64,000 bases of DNA from Parcubacteria group bacterium LiPW_15. Lineage in GTDB: Bacteria; Patescibacteriota; Minisyncoccia; UBA6257; 2-01-FULL-56-20. Location: positions 337,576 to 401,575 of the forward strand of contig VMER01000001.1 of NCBI GenBank assembly GCA_007375645.1. Reading direction: 5' to 3'. The notes beneath the pieces are model-generated. The model searched no databases and had not been told where the DNA came from. It was given only the letters and a program-made list of their open reading frames with translations. Made by a program: the position numbers and the translations under genes. Positions 2,265-50,964 of the stretch are shown here, piece by piece (the stretch's first letter is position 1; each line of letters begins with the position of its first letter).

Positions 2265-3464
<1,200 letters not shown>

Positions 3465-19637: not shown

Positions 19638-20333
19638 CTGTATCATTATATCAGAAAAATTGTCCCCTTGCTCCAAACGCACAAGCTGTTCACGGGCAAG
19701 ATGCAGTATGGCCAAAAAGATGACGATAATCTCCGATTTTGTTTTGGCTTCGGAGAGCTTTCCAAGGCTTGTCTCCCCCACCTCCTTCACCCGCGCCACA
19801 ACTTCTCTTATTTTTTCCTCGAGAGATATTATCTTTTCGCGGATAGTCTTGGTTTCTTCCGAAAGCTTCCGGACCGCGTCGGATATGCGCGACAAAGCTC
19901 CGACCAAAGAATCGTTTGTTACCTTTCCCCCGGGATAGAAAACTTTGACCATCTCCAAACTCCCAAGATATTGGCGCGGATGGGAAATGTTTTTGGAAAG
20001 CCAAAGCGTTTCAAAATTCTTTTTGGCCGTTTTAAATTCCTGATAAAGCGCCAGCCTGCGCTCCAAATCTTTTATATCCGCCTCTTCCTCTTCGTTAAGC
20101 GTTAGGTCGGGCAAAAGAGATTTGGATTTTATTAAGATCAGCTTGCTCGCGACGGAAATGAAATCCGCGAGCATCGTAAAATCTATTTTTTCCGCCTGTT
20201 CCAAATATTTCAAAAAATCGTCGGTTACTTCCGCCAAACTTATCTCCGAAACGGGGAGCTTCTTCTCCTCAATAAGCTCCAAAAGCTTTTCTAGGGGTCC
20301 TTGGAACTTCTCGGTTTTGTACTCGTAAGACAT
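19620..20333 (-). CDS. scpA: segregation and condensation protein A
   Basis: 237 aa; ScpA family similarity. Confidence 0.9.
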   Translation of the reverse strand: MSYEYKTEKFQGPLEKLLELIEEKKLPVSEISLAEVTDDFLKYLEQAEKIDFTMLADFISVASKLILIKSKSLLPDLTLNEEEEADIKDLERRLALYQEFKTAKKNFETLWLSKNISHPRQYLGSLEMVKVFYPGGKVTNDSLVGALSRISDAVRKLSEETKTIREKIISLEEKIREVVARVKEVGETSLGKLSEAKTKSEIIVIFLAILHLAREQLVRLEQGDNFSDIMIQSSSPK

Positions 20334-20363
20334 TAATTAGAATGATAACCCCGTAATCGGAGT

Positions 20364-20399
20364 AAAAAAAGAGGCCCGGGCGCTTACGCGCACGGGCCA
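20364..20399 (-). terminator. intrinsic terminator after GC-rich CDS 20407..20718
   Basis: ggcccgggcgc-ttac-gcgcacgggcc hairpin followed by a T-run on the minus strand. Confidence 0.65.
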
Positions 20400-20406
20400 C
20401 AGGACT

Positions 20407-20718
20407 TTAGGAGCAGACCAGGAGGCCGTCCGTGACGACCATCCCTGGCCCGCACAGCCTGAACCGGTGGTAACCGGTCGAGGAGCAGTGAGCGGCGCGG
20501 ATGTGCCGCTTCGCCTTCGAGGGACTGTCAGCGAGGCCTTCCATAACCTCCTCGCGGGCGGGCGCGAGCTCGCGCCGAAGCGCGACCCGCGAAGCGATGC
20601 GCTCCGCTCGTCTCTCGGCCTTCGCCTCCGCCCCGAAGGGCGAGCTGCGATACCCCGCGCGACCCTTGTCGCGCAGGATCTTCATCCAGGTCTTGCCGAT
20701 CGGGCGGGTCTTGGCCAT
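20407..20718 (-). CDS. hypothetical protein on a GC-rich islet, downstream gene of a two-gene cassette (Cys-containing C-terminus)
   Basis: 104 aa from the internal ATG MAKTRPIGKTW; very high GC3; 15 nt after the upstream gene. Confidence 0.55.
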   Translation of the reverse strand: MAKTRPIGKTWMKILRDKGRAGYRSSPFGAEAKAERRAERIASRVALRRELAPAREEVMEGLADSPSKAKRHIRAAHCSSTGYHRFRLCGPGMVVTDGLLVCS

Positions 20719-20732
20719 GTTCGCGGCTCCTT

Positions 20733-20987
20733 TCAGATCATGTCGTCGAGGTGAAGGTCGTCGATGAGGCTGCTGCCACCGAAGCTTCGAACGAGCTCGC
20801 GAAGTGACTTGCGACTGACGGCGACGTGAAAACGATGCCACGGCATCGTCCCCAGGAAACTCGTGTTCGGAACGTGCTCCAAAAGAGCTTCGGCGATCTC
20901 CGCCTTCGCGATCTTCTCGTTCAGGCTGGCTCGAACGTCCATCCGTTTCACGGGCTTCTTCCTTCTGCCATCGAAAAACTTGGGCAT
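20733..20987 (-). CDS. hypothetical small protein on a GC-rich islet, upstream gene (possible RHH-like N-terminus)
   Basis: 84 aa; high GC3; KRMDVRASLNEKIAKAEIAEALL resembles a ribbon-helix-helix. Confidence 0.5.
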   Translation of the reverse strand: MPKFFDGRRKKPVKRMDVRASLNEKIAKAEIAEALLEHVPNTSFLGTMPWHRFHVAVSRKSLRELVRSFGGSSLIDDLHLDDMI

Positions 20988-21085
20988 CTAGGTCTCCTCT
21001 CAGCGGGCTTTTGAAGAGCTGATTTCGAGCTTGCATTATAGCAAATCAGCAGAATTTGTCAACCAAGTAGTGAAGCTTTATCCCT

Positions 21086-22375
21086 TTATTTCGGCGCCAA
21101 GGCGCCGTCAGTATATATATTTTTCGGGTCCCAGATCATCCATCCCGCGTAAGCGGCAGAAGAGGTTCCGTTCTCTAAGGAGTCATAAACCGCCTGAAAT
21201 TCCTTTTTGACCATCGCCGCATCGTAAGTCGCGCCCATATTGAAGTCTTGTATCCAAGGTCGAAGTTTCCCAAGTTTCTCGGGCGCGATAGCCGGCGTAG
21301 AAGTGGTTTTTGGGGTTGTAAGTGCGAGCCATTTTTCTAAAGCCTTATCCAGCGAATATTTCATCACTTCGTAAGGGTGAGCCCCGGGATTTTGAATGCC
21401 GATGAATCCGGGCGCGTAGTGGGACGGGTAGACCATCGGCGCCACATAATCAAAATATTTATACGCATCCTCAATGACCTGCCCGATGCCAAGGTCATCC
21501 CTGTTTACCGTGGCAAGTCCAAAAAGGTCCGCAGAAATTTTTATAGAACCCATCTTCTCCCTTAAATATGAATAAAAAATGGCAATAACTTTGTGCCGAG
21601 GAGTTTTCATGTCCCAATACGGATAGCTGATGTTCCCGATACTGCCGTCGGAGGCGAAGCGGATATAGTCGAAATTTATTTCGTCAAAACCCCGGCCGAT
21701 CGCCTCCTTGGCGATGGAGATAACATAATCCCAAGTTCCTTGCCCCGCCGGATCCATCCAGGCAAGCTTTTTATTGTCCAGCCAAAGTCCGCCCGCAGTT
21801 TTATTATGAAGCGCCCATTCCGGTTTTAACTTCGCGAGCATCGGGTCCTGAAAAACCGTAACCCTGCCGATAACGTAGATGCCCGCGTCATGAAACTTTT
21901 TAATAACCAGATTCGGGGACGCCATCCGCAAGTCCCTCATCGCCCCGCTCTCTTTAACGAGCGGAATGTCCATCGCGTAGGAAACATAGCCGGAATAATC
22001 TTTAATATCTATAACTACGGCATTCAGTTCCGTGCGTTTTATAAGCGAGATGATCCTGTCTACGGTTTTCGTACTGCCGGCTGACCACCCAGTTAAATAG
22101 ACCGCTTTGACCACGGTCGGCGGATTCGGGAGCTGTGGCTGCGGCGGCAGATCGGTCGAACCCTTGGGTACAAAATAAGCGTCGGTGGAAGTCGGCGTGC
22201 TCGTAGCTTCGGTCTGTCCGTCTAAAATTCCCACTCCGTTTTCTCCGGAAATAACTTCCGAAACCTGAGCGCCCAAACCGCCCTTGGCCTCAGGTTTGAT
22301 AACAATCCCTCGAGGTATCAAAAAGACACTGGAACCCAAACCCAAAATTAATATTGCGAAAATCGCCCTCCTCAT
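21086..22375 (-). CDS. putative secreted glycoside hydrolase-like protein (GHL10/DUF4015-like)
   Basis: about 430 aa from the internal Met MRRAIF; N-terminal TM/signal; family call is from memory only. Confidence 0.5.
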   Translation of the reverse strand: MRRAIFAILILGLGSSVFLIPRGIVIKPEAKGGLGAQVSEVISGENGVGILDGQTEATSTPTSTDAYFVPKGSTDLPPQPQLPNPPTVVKAVYLTGWSAGSTKTVDRIISLIKRTELNAVVIDIKDYSGYVSYAMDIPLVKESGAMRDLRMASPNLVIKKFHDAGIYVIGRVTVFQDPMLAKLKPEWALHNKTAGGLWLDNKKLAWMDPAGQGTWDYVISIAKEAIGRGFDEINFDYIRFASDGSIGNISYPYWDMKTPRHKVIAIFYSYLREKMGSIKISADLFGLATVNRDDLGIGQVIEDAYKYFDYVAPMVYPSHYAPGFIGIQNPGAHPYEVMKYSLDKALEKWLALTTPKTTSTPAIAPEKLGKLRPWIQDFNMGATYDAAMVKKEFQAVYDSLENGTSSAAYAGWMIWDPKNIYTDGALAPK

Positions 22376-26349: not shown

Positions 26350-26973
26350 TTGAATACGCAAGGAGTCTTCGTGCTCCTCTCCTCGCTCGTCTCAATTCCC
26401 ATGTCGGCCTGGTACGCGCGCCTTGCCTGGGTCGGTAAGAGTGCGCCGCCCCTTTCCACTTGGACCATCTTTACCATAACGGTAACTCTGAGTCTCCCGA
26501 GCTATCTGTCTTCCGGGAACCGTGACGCGCTAGGCGCCATCTCGAACATCACCGACCTATTCGCCGTCTGGTCGGCGCTTATCGCGATACTGTTCGGGCA
26601 AAAGCGCCAAGCGCTGAAACTCACCAAAGCGGATATCTTCTGCCTCCTTGCCATCGTTAAGGTCTGTGTCGCCTGGGCATTCGTGTGGTACTTCTGGAGC
26701 AAGGAAACCGCCGGCCTTACCGCCTTCTGGTATATCCAGGGAATCATGGTCATCGCCTACTGGCCAACGATCACGAGGCTCTGGAAATCCAAAGAGCTGA
26801 CCGAACCTTTCGGCCCATGGCTTGGCGTCATACTCTCCATGAGTCTTGGACTGGGCGCCGCCCTAACCGGCAACGATCGCTTCCCCGCCGCCATTTATCC
26901 CCTGCGCGCCGTGGTGATGGTCTCCATCGTAATCGCCATCATCGTCTACAAACGACGCAAGCTCTCCCGTTAG
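26350..26973 (+). CDS. hypothetical polytopic membrane protein (TTG start)
   Basis: 207 aa; multiple hydrophobic helices; RBS AAGGAGGG upstream. Confidence 0.55.
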   Translation: MNTQGVFVLLSSLVSIPMSAWYARLAWVGKSAPPLSTWTIFTITVTLSLPSYLSSGNRDALGAISNITDLFAVWSALIAILFGQKRQALKLTKADIFCLLAIVKVCVAWAFVWYFWSKETAGLTAFWYIQGIMVIAYWPTITRLWKSKELTEPFGPWLGVILSMSLGLGAALTGNDRFPAAIYPLRAVVMVSIVIAIIVYKRRKLSR

Positions 26974-35479: not shown

Positions 35480-35860
35480 CTAATAGCTACCGAAAAGGCT
35501 CGCTCGCCCCGCGACCTCGAGAGTCTTGGTGATCTCCTTTGCCGTCTTGGCATCCCGCTTCCGGACGACCTCGAACATCTTCTCGAGGACTTCCCGAGGA
35601 CCCAGAATGTGGATGTCTTTCCGCTCCACCGGATAGAAGGGCTGGGACTTGCCCGATGGCCAGTAGCCCTTCTCCGGCCAGACGAGATACAGCGCCTTGT
35701 CGGGCTCGTCGTATTCTTCGACGACACCGATGACATTCCATACGTCCACCCAGACGACGTCGCCGCCTTTGAGCTCGACCCATACGTCCGCCTGGACGAC
35801 TTCGCCGCCCCTGAGCTCGGCCTCCACGACTTCCTGTTTTTCTTTGATCTCTTCCACGAT
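35480..35860 (-). CDS. hypothetical GC-rich protein with an internal tandem repeat (..EVVQADVWVEL / KGGDVVWVDVW..), probable GTG start
   Basis: about 125 aa; GGAGG RBS; imperfect roughly 39 nt tandem DNA repeat. Confidence 0.45.
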   Translation of the reverse strand: MVEEIKEKQEVVEAELRGGEVVQADVWVELKGGDVVWVDVWNVIGVVEEYDEPDKALYLVWPEKGYWPSGKSQPFYPVERKDIHILGPREVLEKMFEVVRKRDAKTAKEITKTLEVAGRASLFGSY

Positions 35861-35922
35861 GCACCTCCTAGTTCTCGCCGGATTATAACAAAAAAACAAC
35901 CTCCGTCAAAGCTGTTTTTTTG

Positions 35923-50532: not shown

Positions 50533-50621
50533 ATTTGAGTGAATCAAATACATTTTTAGCATCAAATCACGTTTTTGACAATCCGCACTTTAGATATATA
50601 ATAACGAAGCAATTAATTACC

Positions 50622-50694
50622 GCGGGAGGATTAGGGAATGGTTTCCCGGGGAGCCCCATAAGCTCTTGAAGCTGGTCCGATTCCAGCTCCCGCA
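50622..50694 (+). ncRNA. non-canonical tRNA-like gene (perfect 7 bp acceptor stem GCGGGAG/CTCCCGC, T-arm GCTGG-TCCGATT-CCAGC, irregular D/anticodon region)
   Basis: 73 nt; acceptor and T-arm fold by hand, but no canonical anticodon arm; its 3' end is the direct-repeat target of element C. Confidence 0.45.
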
Positions 50695-50964
50695 ACAAGA
50701 AACAAAAACACCCCGAGGGGTGTTTTTGTTTTGATGTTGGAATCGGACGTGAAGGGGGTCGGGGAAACGGCGGTTGCTCGCGCAAGTAAACAAACGTCTT
50801 TCCGCCGATAGGCGGGGCCGTGGCGGAAATACTGCAATTGGTAGCGAGGATAAAATGGCATTGAACATTTTAGCCGAGCGAACCAATTGATGGCTTGTCC
50901 TTCAAACCGCGGGGTGTTAGAAAATTCGCAAAGCGAATTTTGTCTGCTTCCAGCTCCCGCAACA
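50681..50964 (-). mobile_element. miniature tRNA-3'-end-associated element, copy C
   Basis: 17 bp direct repeat ttccagctcccgcaaca at 50681..50697 (the tRNA-like 3' end) and 50948..50964; conserved core at 50750..50843 on the minus strand, with a roughly 45 nt expansion of the hairpin; spacer homologous to copy B. Confidence 0.55.
50704..50731. terminator. bidirectional intrinsic terminator / centre of a 22 bp nested palindrome
   Basis: aaaaacaccccgaggggtgttttt. Confidence 0.65.

What the first reader, a model, noticed from the sequence alone, without database searches (positions are those of the whole stretch)
20364..20987. GC-rich two-gene cassette (84 aa RHH-like plus 104 aa) with its own GC-hairpin terminator; candidate toxin-antitoxin-like module
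The two small genes have very high GC3 (region about 62% GC against about 50% background) and a 15 nt spacing. The first gene has an RHH-like N-terminus (KRMDVRASLNEKIAKAEIAEALL). The terminator is ggcccgggcgc-ttac-gcgcacgggcc. The long 209 aa ORF in the track is an artefact of the GC-rich frame. The organisation (small DNA-binding gene followed by a small partner, foreign composition, inserted between scpA and a glycoside-hydrolase-like gene) is typical of type II TA or other selfish two-gene cassettes, but neither protein matched a family by eye.
Basis: partly seen in the sequence, partly recalled or inferred. Interest (0 to 1): 0.55.

Follow-up and report, generated by a model that had tools for sequence, protein, structure and literature searches.

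The report
Hypervariable orphan-gene slot upstream of scpA
The GC-rich two-gene unit is real, but relatives show a strongly expressed slot between two housekeeping genes whose small, family-less genes are swapped, lost or replaced between close strains, so it does not behave like an obligate toxin-antitoxin pair.

Summary
On the minus strand lie a perfect extended -10 sigma-70 promoter, an 84-aa gene (g1a), a 14-nt spacer with AAGGAG, a 103-aa gene (g2) and a hairpin terminator. The region is 63.5% GC against 48.5% for the window, with GC3 of 0.74 and 0.87. The 209-aa ORF is a frame artefact.

The toxin-antitoxin and RHH readings are not supported. Neither protein matches Pfam, NCBIfam, PADLOC, PHROGs or PDB. 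An exhaustive search of 1.84 billion representative proteins found only two relatives of g2.

The genome is Parcubacteria LiPW_15. Seven related contigs carry the same DUF4015-to-scpA junction:
- A sister strain (flanks 98-99% identical) has another 75-aa first gene plus g2.
- A species with 79% ScpA identity has g2 alone.
- Four relatives have a 134-193-aa acidic protein alone.
- A 49% relative has the two core genes 1 bp apart, an empty site.

Promoter and terminator are conserved while the cargo turns over. Cargo dN/dS is 0.4-0.6 against 0.04-0.08 in the flanks. Every cargo allele keeps high GC3, partly mirroring the codon bias of EF-Tu and S10.

Best reading: a lineage-specific, highly expressed accessory slot with fast-evolving orphan binding proteins. 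Function is unknown, possibly conflict-related.

The parts
20334..21085 (-). The whole slot: everything between the stop of the DUF4015 gene (21086..21088) and the ATG of scpA (20333..20331). A more distant relative has nothing here.
   Evidence: In L004 the DUF4015 stop and the scpA ATG are 1 bp apart. The same junction is occupied by different cargo in L001, L002, L003, L009, L010 and L012.
21035..21062 (-). Sigma-70 consensus promoter TTGACA-N16-TATAAT with an extended -10 (TGC before TATAAT).
   Evidence: It matches 12 of 12 consensus positions with TG. It is one of only two perfect matches in 64 kb. It is present at this junction in L001, L003, L010, L012 and L002, and the promoter region is 83-88% identical to L003, L010 and L012 and 100% to L001.
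21018..21050 (.). Inverted repeat GCTGATTT (21050..21043) and AAATCAGC (21025..21018) bracketing the -10 box and the start of the 5' UTR. It is a possible operator.
   Evidence: Coordinates were checked. The arms are 8/8 complementary here and in L001, about 7/8 in L010 and L012, weaker in L003, and absent in L002. Any function is inferred only.
20994..20999 (-). Shine-Dalgarno sequence GAGGAG, 6 nt upstream of the g1a start codon.
20733..20987 (-). g1a: an 84-aa orphan protein (GenBank TSC60527.1, LiPW15_405). It has a basic N-terminal half and an acidic C-terminal tail, SLIDDLHLDDMI.
   Evidence: ORF and GC3 of 0.74. The only match among 5.8 billion proteins is itself. No family hit. In sister strain L001 it is replaced by a 75-aa protein with 29% identity that shares only the C-terminal 18 residues.
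20727..20732 (-). Shine-Dalgarno sequence AAGGAG for g2, inside the 14-nt intergenic spacer.
20407..20718 (-). g2: a 103-aa orphan protein (GenBank TSC60526.1, LiPW15_404). It has pI 10.7 and is predicted helical over residues 7-74. It lacks the 11 residues that follow Met-Ala in its homologues.
   Evidence: GC3 of 0.865. An exhaustive phmmer search found only P0002 (sister strain) and P0004 (42% identity, E = 5e-9). Alignment, AF2 model, synonymous-only differences, best-scoring frame.
20364..20398 (-). Intrinsic terminator: an 11-bp GC-rich stem with one mismatch, a GTAA loop and a T7 run.
   Evidence: Predicted folding energy -22.8 kcal/mol, z = -3.96. It is 93-97% identical to the terminator that follows the different cargo in L009, L010 and L012.

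Best explanation
What it is (shown). This is an autonomous, strongly expressed accessory transcription unit. It consists of a consensus extended -10 promoter, small ORFs each led by a Shine-Dalgarno sequence, and an intrinsic terminator. It was inserted between the DUF4015 glycosidase-like gene and scpA in the ancestor of a narrow Parcubacteria clade. Since then it has behaved as a hypervariable slot. The promoter and terminator are inherited with the backbone. The coding cargo is replaced, deleted or added between close relatives. Cargo proteins evolve roughly 5 to 15 times faster at the protein level than the flanking genes.

In this genome the cargo is two clade-restricted orphan genes. g1a (84 aa) has a basic N-terminal half and an acidic LxDDLxLD tail. 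g2 (103 aa) is very basic and predicted helical.

How it most likely works (inferred, not shown). Both products are probably abundant, small, highly charged cytoplasmic proteins that act by binding rather than by catalysis. g2 would bind nucleic acid or an acidic partner. The acidic C-terminal peptide is the only feature shared by the first-gene alleles, and it may act as a docking or neutralising peptide. The rapid allele turnover fits a gene at a conflict or symbiosis interface, such as phage, host or an addiction-like interaction. It does not fit a housekeeping role. It is not a demonstrable toxin-antitoxin system.
For: Anatomy.

Identity of the genome: Parcubacteria group bacterium LiPW_15.

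States of the slot in relatives:
- L001, with flanks 98-99% identical, has the same promoter, g2 and terminator, but an unrelated-looking 75-aa first gene and a g2 that is 11 residues longer at the N-terminus.
- L002 (ScpA 79% identical) has promoter, g2 homologue and terminator only.
- L003 (ScpA 90%) and L010 and L012 (93-96%) have the same promoter with a single acidic 134-193-aa protein and no g2. L009 (93%) shows the 3' part of that gene and the terminator; its 5' end is cut off.
- L004 (ScpA 49%) and L005 (35%) have no cassette.

Conserved frame, variable cargo: promoter regions are 83-88% identical and terminators 93-97% identical across cargo types, while the cargo shows no DNA similarity.

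Rates of evolution:
- Flanking genes have dN/dS of 0.04-0.08.
- g2 between the window and L002 has dN/dS of 0.63.
- g1c between L010 and L012 has dN/dS of 0.42, at a dS of 0.27 that equals the ScpA dS of 0.25.
- g1c between L009 and L012 has dN/dS of 0.17.
- g2 between the window and L001 has 3 synonymous and 0 non-synonymous differences.

Composition: all cargo alleles have GC3 of 0.74-0.88 against 0.51-0.62 in the flanks. The codon shift correlates with that of EF-Tu plus S10, r = 0.57, p = 2e-6.

Charge: g2 has pI 10.3-10.7. The g1c proteins have pI 4.6-5.3 with a basic N-terminal half and an acidic C-terminal half.

Neighbours: all are housekeeping genes (DUF4015, ScpA, ScpB, D-Ala-D-Ala carboxypeptidase, DnaX), with no integrase or transposase.
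Against: - No experiment or homology gives a function. The binding and conflict reading rests on size, charge, expression signals and evolutionary rate only.
- dN/dS of 0.4-0.6 could equally mean relaxed constraint on nearly useless ORFs.
- The structure models are of low confidence: pLDDT 61 and 60.
- Homology between g1a or g1b and the g1c proteins is not statistically established: hhalign E = 0.018 and 0.08, and shuffle z about 2.
- The g1a/g1b replacement rests on a single 1,156-bp metagenomic contig.
- The origin of the GC3 bias is only partly explained.
Confidence: 0.55

Rival explanations
1. Type II toxin-antitoxin or addiction module. g1a would be a labile antitoxin whose C-terminal acidic peptide neutralises the basic toxin g2. 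The inverted repeat around the -10 box would be the autoregulatory operator.
For: - Two small co-transcribed genes lie 14 nt apart.
- An 8/8 inverted repeat brackets the -10 box.
- The unit is inserted between core genes and is absent in more distant relatives.
- The first gene differs between sister strains while g2 is conserved, and its conserved part is the C-terminal tail.
Against: - There is no match to any toxin, antitoxin or defence family in Pfam, NCBIfam, PADLOC or PHROGs, and no PDB match.
- g2 stands alone under the same promoter in L002.
- The acidic g1c protein stands alone in L003, L010 and L012 and in the part of the slot seen on L009.
- g1a is itself basic, pI 9.9.
- The operator-like repeat and promoter stay conserved where g2 is absent.
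- Consensus promoter, consensus Shine-Dalgarno sequences and expression-type codon bias are unusual for toxin-antitoxin loci. This last point is from my own knowledge.
Confidence: 0.12
2. Anti-defence (acr-aca-like) operon. The variable first gene would be an inhibitor of a host or competitor immune system. The conserved downstream g2 would be a repressor that tames the very strong promoter through the inverted repeat.
For: - The architecture matches published acr-aca operons: a strong promoter with inverted repeats, a small variable orphan gene upstream and a conserved small gene downstream (PMC6765145, PMC9410906).
- g1 is replaced between sister strains while g2 is 100% conserved.
Against: - No helix-turn-helix or other DNA-binding domain is detected in g2.
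- The locus sits between core chromosomal genes with no mobile-element genes nearby.
- No relatives were found in 2.9 million viral contigs, or in the phage and plasmid collections.
- g2-only and g1c-only states exist.
Confidence: 0.1
3. Functionless remnant. An old foreign insertion brought a promoter that scpAB now depends on, because the insertion split the former DUF4015-scpA operon. The promoter and terminator are kept for that reason. The GC-rich stretch between them drifts, and its open frames are by-products of the scarcity of stop codons in GC-rich DNA.
For: - In L004 the DUF4015 gene and scpA are contiguous, which implies co-transcription.
- Only 30 nt separate the terminator from the scpA ATG in the window.
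- Promoter and terminator are conserved while the cargo is not.
- Cargo dN/dS is high, 0.4-0.6.
- Antisense frames are open as well.
Against: - Every cargo ORF in every locus has a consensus Shine-Dalgarno sequence at the correct distance.
- Codon periodicity is strong, and GC3 is maintained over dS greater than 0.8.
- dN/dS is below 1 in all pairs, with values of 0 and 0.17 in the two closest pairs.
- The sense frame is the best conserved.
- Gene callers in other projects call the same ORFs.
Confidence: 0.15
4. Not protein-coding in these frames. It would be a structured GC-rich non-coding RNA, or a gene on the other strand.
For: - It is a GC-rich island with its own promoter and terminator.
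- The L003 transcript folds far better than shuffled sequences, z = -5.3.
- Long antisense ORFs exist.
Against: - Rfam gives only sub-threshold terminator-like hits.
- Folding z-scores are -1.7 and -0.9 for the window and L002 transcripts.
- There is no sequence conservation between cargo types.
- Shine-Dalgarno sequences, GC3 periodicity, synonymous-only differences and the frame test all favour the annotated frames.
Confidence: 0.03

Closest known systems
Chromosomal accessory-gene hotspots, also called flexible genomic islets, between conserved core genes
   Same: A fixed position between two core genes (DUF4015 and scpA) carries different accessory content in close relatives and is empty in more distant ones. 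The cargo is clade-restricted and evolves fast.
   Different: The slot is tiny, 0.4-0.75 kb, with one or two genes. It has no integrase, tRNA or repeat boundaries. Its own consensus promoter and terminator are conserved as a frame around the changing cargo. All cargo alleles share an unusual GC3-rich codon usage.
Type II toxin-antitoxin operons
   Same: Two small co-transcribed genes with a short spacer, a palindrome at the promoter, a patchy distribution and a variable first gene with a conserved C-terminal peptide.
   Different: There is no family membership for either protein. Each gene occurs without the other in relatives. The first protein is basic. Expression signals and codon bias are those of a very highly expressed unit.
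Anti-CRISPR plus aca operons (PMC6765145, PMC9410906)
   Same: A strong promoter with inverted repeats, a small hypervariable orphan gene upstream and a conserved small gene downstream.
   Different: No helix-turn-helix domain is detected in g2. There is no mobile-element context and no viral relatives. Single-gene states of the slot exist.
Integron platform (Pc promoter driving exchangeable promoterless cassettes)
   Same: A conserved promoter upstream of exchangeable small promoterless ORFs.
   Different: There is no intI gene among the neighbours. No attC-like recombination site was found: the only conserved downstream element is the terminator. There is a single cassette position rather than an array.

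Membership tests
Type II toxin-antitoxin system | Two adjacent, co-oriented, co-transcribed small genes | tested here: met
   g1a and g2 are 14 nt apart, with one promoter and one terminator.
Type II toxin-antitoxin system | The toxin belongs to a recognisable toxin fold or family | tested here: not met
   g2 has no hit in Pfam, NCBIfam, PADLOC, PHROGs or by PDB sequence search. Foldseek against the PDB gave 0 matches, on a low-confidence model.
Type II toxin-antitoxin system | The antitoxin has a DNA-binding domain (RHH, HTH, AbrB or Phd) | tested here: not met
   g1a has no family hit. The AF2 model (pLDDT 60) shows a helix at 18-38 with no preceding strand. No Foldseek match reaches E below 0.09.
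Type II toxin-antitoxin system | The two genes co-occur as an obligate pair in relatives | tested here: not met
   g2 is alone in L002. g1c is alone in L003, L010 and L012 and in the part of the slot seen on L009.
Type II toxin-antitoxin system | Toxicity of one product and neutralisation by the other; autoregulation at an operator | not testable with these tools
   Only an 8/8 inverted repeat around the -10 box is seen, and it is partly conserved.
RHH (CopG/Arc/MetJ) DNA-binding proteins, for g1a | An N-terminal beta-strand followed by two helices, detectable by profile or fold search | tested here: not met
   No Pfam or NCBIfam match at E up to 1. No relevant PDB sequence hit. The model lacks the strand and is of low confidence.
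acr-aca anti-defence operon | The downstream conserved gene encodes a helix-turn-helix (or other DNA-binding) repressor | tested here: not met
   No helix-turn-helix or other DNA-binding family is detected in any of the three g2 homologues.
acr-aca anti-defence operon | Location in a phage, prophage, plasmid or other mobile element | tested here: not met
   The flanking genes are DUF4015, ScpA, ScpB, a carboxypeptidase and DnaX. No relatives were found in viral contigs, phage records or plasmid records.
acr-aca anti-defence operon | Inhibition of a defence system | not testable with these tools
   This needs an experiment.
Integron gene cassette | An intI integrase next to the promoter, and an attC site 3' of the cassette | tested here: not met
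   The neighbours are housekeeping genes. No conserved imperfect inverted repeat other than the terminator is present.
Insertion sequence, MITE or other transposable element | Terminal inverted repeats and a target-site duplication at the borders | tested here: not met
   No terminal inverted or direct repeats were found at the slot borders. The MITE-like elements seen in L002 and L010 are separate inserts and are absent from the window.
Known structured RNA (Rfam) | A match at or above a family's gathering score | tested here: not met
   The best hit is suhB/mmgR at 23 bits against a gathering score of 41, and it lies on the terminator hairpin.

The most novel reading that the evidence does not exclude
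The slot could be a previously undescribed kind of 'expression socket' in a CPR symbiont. A vertically inherited consensus promoter and terminator would bracket small genes that are exchanged between strains and selected to keep an extreme GC3-rich codon usage. The cargo would consist of new families of abundantly made effector or anti-defence proteins used at the interface between the symbiont and its host or phages. In that reading, g1 alleles are specificity variants and g2 is their partner or regulator.
Probability: 0.12. Interest if true: 0.75.

Novelty: new variant of a known kind. Interest (0 to 1): 0.42.

Why it matters
CPR/Patescibacteria genomes are small and largely syntenic, and their biology as symbionts is poorly understood. 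This locus is among the most strongly signalled for expression in the window, yet it is among the least conserved. Such a locus is a natural place to look for genes that mediate conflict or host interaction.

It also shows two things about method. A GC-rich 'foreign-looking' island need not be a recent import. Comparing the same junction in relatives can overturn a toxin-antitoxin call that was made from operon shape alone.

If the maintained GC3 bias reflects selection for expression, the slot gives a rare handle on codon optimisation and promoter strength in an uncultivated lineage.

Tried and rejected
Profile and sequence searches that found nothing:
- All cargo proteins were searched against Pfam, NCBIfam, PADLOC and PHROGs. 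Nothing approached any curated threshold.
- PDB sequence searches with single proteins and with profiles gave nothing credible.
- tblastn of g1a against plasmids and of g2 against plasmids and phages gave no match.
- Scans of viral contigs with g2, the g2 alignment, the g1c alignment and a promoter pattern found no relative.

Structure:
- AF2 models of g2 and g1a had pLDDT 61 and 60. Foldseek against the PDB was uninformative.

Homology between cargo families:
- g1a and g1b were tested against g1c, and g1c against g2, by BLASTP, hhalign and shuffling.
- Only motif-level similarity was found (KAEI..AL.EH..N, EL.R.F and L.DDL.LD). It is not significant.

RNA hypothesis:
- Rfam and folding z-scores are inconsistent between alleles.

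Transposon hypothesis:
- No terminal repeats or target-site duplication were found.

Paralogues and extra loci:
- No paralogues are present elsewhere in the window.
- Exact-sequence look-ups for P0001 and for the window's ScpA are not on record.

Literature:
- The search for LiPW/Parcubacteria returned 0 papers and the search for CPR hypervariable loci returned nothing applicable.
Full report
**1. The observation**

The region is real and stands out. Window 20364..20987 is 63.5% GC against 48.5% overall. It is the GC maximum of the 64 kb, with z = 3.8 for 624-nt windows.

On the minus strand the following lie in order:
- A sigma-70 promoter matching 12 of 12 consensus positions, with an extended -10 (TTGACA-N16-TGcTATAAT), at 21062..21035. 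It is one of only two perfect matches in the window.
- An inverted repeat, GCTGATTT and AAATCAGC, bracketing the -10 box.
- GAGGAG, then 6 nt, then the ATG of an 84-aa ORF. This is g1a, 20987..20733.
- A 14-nt spacer containing AAGGAG.
- A 103-aa ORF. This is g2, 20718..20407.
- A GC-rich hairpin followed by T7 at 20398..20364. Predicted folding energy is -22.8 kcal/mol, z = -3.96.

GC by codon position is 0.58/0.39/0.74 for g1a and 0.635/0.567/0.865 for g2. The neighbours have GC3 of about 0.54, and all window ORFs of at least 100 aa have GC3 of 0.527 +/- 0.075.

The 209-aa ORF is a frame artefact. Its 5' half has the wrong periodicity and it is not preserved in a sister strain.

g2 is 103 aa, not 104. 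The spacer is 14 nt, not 15.

**2. Identity and homologues**

The window comes from Parcubacteria group bacterium LiPW_15. The genes are LiPW15_405 and LiPW15_404, both annotated as hypothetical.

Neither protein matches any model in Pfam, NCBIfam, PADLOC or PHROGs. Neither matches the PDB. g2 has no match in plasmid or phage records or viral contigs, and g1a none in plasmid records.

Homologue searches gave the following:
- The word-index search of 5.8 billion proteins returned only g1a itself for g1a.
- The same search returned one sister-strain sequence for g2.
- An exhaustive phmmer search of g2 against 1.84 billion representatives of 15 billion proteins found just two relatives. These are P0002 (the sister strain) and P0004 (101 aa, 42% identity, E = 5e-9).

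**3. The same junction in relatives**

This comparison decides the interpretation.
- **L001** is an ENA contig whose flanks are 98-99% identical to the window.
  - It has the same promoter, g2 and terminator.
  - Its first gene is a different 75-aa ORF, 29% identical overall. Only the last 18 residues are similar, with pairwise E = 0.006.
  - Its g2 carries 11 extra residues after Met-Ala.
- **L002** is a Logan contig with ScpA 79% identical. It reads DUF4015 gene, consensus promoter, GAAGGAGG, g2 homologue, hairpin terminator, scpA. It has no first gene at all.
- **L003** (a GTDB genome, ScpA 90% identical) and **L010 and L012** (JGI contigs, ScpA 93-96% identical) have the same promoter. It is followed by a single acidic ORF of 134-193 aa, here called g1c, and no g2. 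L009 (JGI, ScpA 93%) shows the 3' part of the same gene; its 5' end is cut off. The ORF carries motifs such as YFDDLDLDDDLDLD and YLDDLDLNFF. In L009, L010 and L012 it is followed by the same terminator as in the window, 93-97% identical.
- **L004** (ScpA 49% identical) has the DUF4015 stop codon and the scpA ATG 1 bp apart. **L005** (35% identical) has another gene abutting scpA. Both are empty sites.

So the unit is an insertion restricted to a narrow clade. Within that clade the promoter and terminator are backbone, while the cargo changes.

The independent assemblies come from at least five projects. This rules out a chimeric artefact for the GC island as such. The g1a/g1b replacement, however, rests on one short contig.

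**4. Are the ORFs real genes?**

Yes, on current evidence.
- Every cargo ORF in every locus has a consensus Shine-Dalgarno sequence at the correct distance.
- GC3 periodicity is strong in the annotated frames.
- The three differences in g2 between the window and L001 are all synonymous. All three change the amino acid in the antisense ORF.
- tblastx of the window g2 against the L002 g2 scores 68 bits in the sense frame and 45 bits or less in other frames.
- dN/dS is below 1 in all pairs.
- Rfam finds only a sub-threshold terminator-like hit.
- Folding z-scores are inconsistent between alleles: -1.7, -0.9 and -5.3.

**5. Evolutionary behaviour**

Between species, the flanking genes have dN/dS of 0.04-0.08 at dS of 1.3-2.1.

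The cargo behaves differently:
- g2 between the window and L002 has dN of 0.50 and dN/dS of 0.63.
- g1c between L010 and L012 has dN/dS of 0.42 at dS of 0.27. That dS equals the ScpA dS of 0.25 between L010 and L009, a contig 98.5% identical to L012 across the slot. This indicates vertical descent with very fast protein change.
- g1c between L003 and L012 has dN/dS of 0.39.

The gap between g1a and g1b is 29% identity, yet the flanks of these two strains have dS of about 0.04. Point mutation cannot produce that. It must be an allelic replacement, with breakpoints in the 5' UTR and at codon 3 of g2.

Homology between g1a or g1b and g1c is suggested by collinear motifs but is not significant. 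hhalign gives E = 0.018 and 0.08, and shuffling gives z of about 2.

**6. Composition**

All eight cargo genes examined keep GC3 of 0.74-0.88 in genomes whose flanking genes have GC3 of 0.51-0.62. Two examples from the pooled cargo:
- Lysine is AAG:AAA = 47:2 in the cargo, against 44:73 in five neighbouring genes.
- CTC is the dominant leucine codon in the cargo.

Relative to bulk genes, the cargo's codon shift correlates with the shift seen in EF-Tu plus S10, with r = 0.57 and p = 2e-6. The shared preferences are AAG, AAC, ATC, CAG, CAC, TTC, GTC and CGC.

Part of the 'foreign' signal therefore looks like extreme optimisation for high expression in this host. That fits the consensus promoter and Shine-Dalgarno sequences.

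Several preferences go beyond that explanation and remain unexplained: GAG, GAC, CTC, CGG and TCG. GC-biased gene conversion at a recombination-prone site, or a high-GC donor pool, are possibilities I could not test.

**7. What it is and how it probably works**

*Shown.* It is an autonomous, strongly signalled accessory transcription unit at a fixed chromosomal slot. Its cargo consists of clade-restricted orphan proteins that turn over rapidly. In this genome the cargo is g1a plus g2.

*Inferred.* The products are small, highly charged cytoplasmic proteins.
- g2 has pI 10.3-10.7.
- g1a and g1b have a basic N-terminal half and an acidic tail.
- The g1c proteins have pI 4.6-5.3 with a basic N-terminal half and a strongly acidic C-terminal half.
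- The g2 model is helical over residues 7-74, with its best confidence at residues 31-50.

Proteins of this kind act by binding. The most economical model has two parts. g2 binds nucleic acid or an acidic partner. The conserved acidic and hydrophobic C-terminal peptide of the first-gene alleles is a docking or neutralising element.

Rapid replacement between near-identical strains suggests diversifying pressure, as seen at conflict or host-interface loci. Relaxed constraint is the null alternative.

**8. Comparison with known systems**

*Type II toxin-antitoxin.* The operon shape and the palindrome fit. Three defining features were tested and not met: a toxin family, an antitoxin DNA-binding domain, and obligate co-occurrence of the two genes.

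*acr-aca operons* (PMC6765145, PMC9410906). These share the strong promoter with inverted repeats, the variable first gene and the conserved second gene. Here, however, no helix-turn-helix domain is found, there is no mobile-element context, and single-gene states of the slot exist.

*Integron cassettes.* These share the idea of a fixed promoter with exchangeable ORFs. Here there is no intI gene and no attC site.

*Closest general category.* This is a chromosomal accessory-gene hotspot. The present case is an unusually small variant, framed by its own promoter and terminator.

**9. Verdict**

- The insertion and cassette reading is supported.
- The RHH and toxin-antitoxin readings are not supported.
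- Function is unknown. My committed reading is a highly expressed, fast-evolving pair of binding proteins in a hypervariable slot, with confidence of about 0.55. Most of that confidence lies in the descriptive part.
- Interest is moderate. The locus is ordinary in being made of hypothetical CPR genes. It is unusual in its conserved expression frame, its strain-level cargo swapping and its maintained codon bias.

Noticed in passing
window 50575..50735 (+): The only other perfect TTGACA-N16-TATAAT promoter in the window is here. It precedes a 72-nt tRNA-like RNA at 50622..50693, with acceptor stem GCGGGAG/CTCCCGC and a T-arm GCTGG-TCCGATT-CCAGC, followed by a hairpin terminator. Rfam gives only tRNA-Sec at 33.5 bits, below the gathering score of 47 (E = 6e-5). 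ARAGORN and the general tRNA model do not call it. Its 3' motif CCAGCTCCCGCAACA recurs at about 50941..50955.
   Followed up: partly
L002 2010..2140 and 2568..2714; L010 1..135: MITE-like inserts of about 130-145 bp, with terminal inverted repeats of roughly GGTAGTAGAATTTCGCT / AGCGAAATTTCACTACC, sit on either side of the cassette in relatives. None is present in the window.
   Followed up: partly
window 35480..35899 (-) and 26350..26973 (+): These are the two other GC3-rich ORFs in the window, with GC3 of 0.75 and 0.74. The first is a small orphan ORF downstream of an FtsX-like gene. The second is a 207-aa multi-pass membrane protein. No similarity to g1 or g2 was detected.
   Followed up: partly
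window 20710..20718 (-) compared with L001 687..730 and L002 2209..2250: The window's g2 lacks the 11 codons that follow Met-Ala in the L001 homologue and that are also present, one residue shorter, in L002. The junction lies between short CCAA(G/A) repeats. This suggests a slippage deletion or the right-hand recombination breakpoint.
   Followed up: partly
L003 3436..3840: The 134-aa cargo protein contains tandem acidic DDLDLD repeats encoded by repeated GACCTCGAC units. Its transcript folds much better than shuffled sequences (z = -5.3), unlike the other alleles.
   Followed up: no
window 20334..20363 (-): Only 30 nt separate the terminator's T-run from the scpA ATG, and there is no obvious Shine-Dalgarno sequence. 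The motif TTATCATTCTAWTTAATG is shared with L002. scpAB may depend on read-through from the cassette promoter, or on a near-leaderless start.
   Followed up: no
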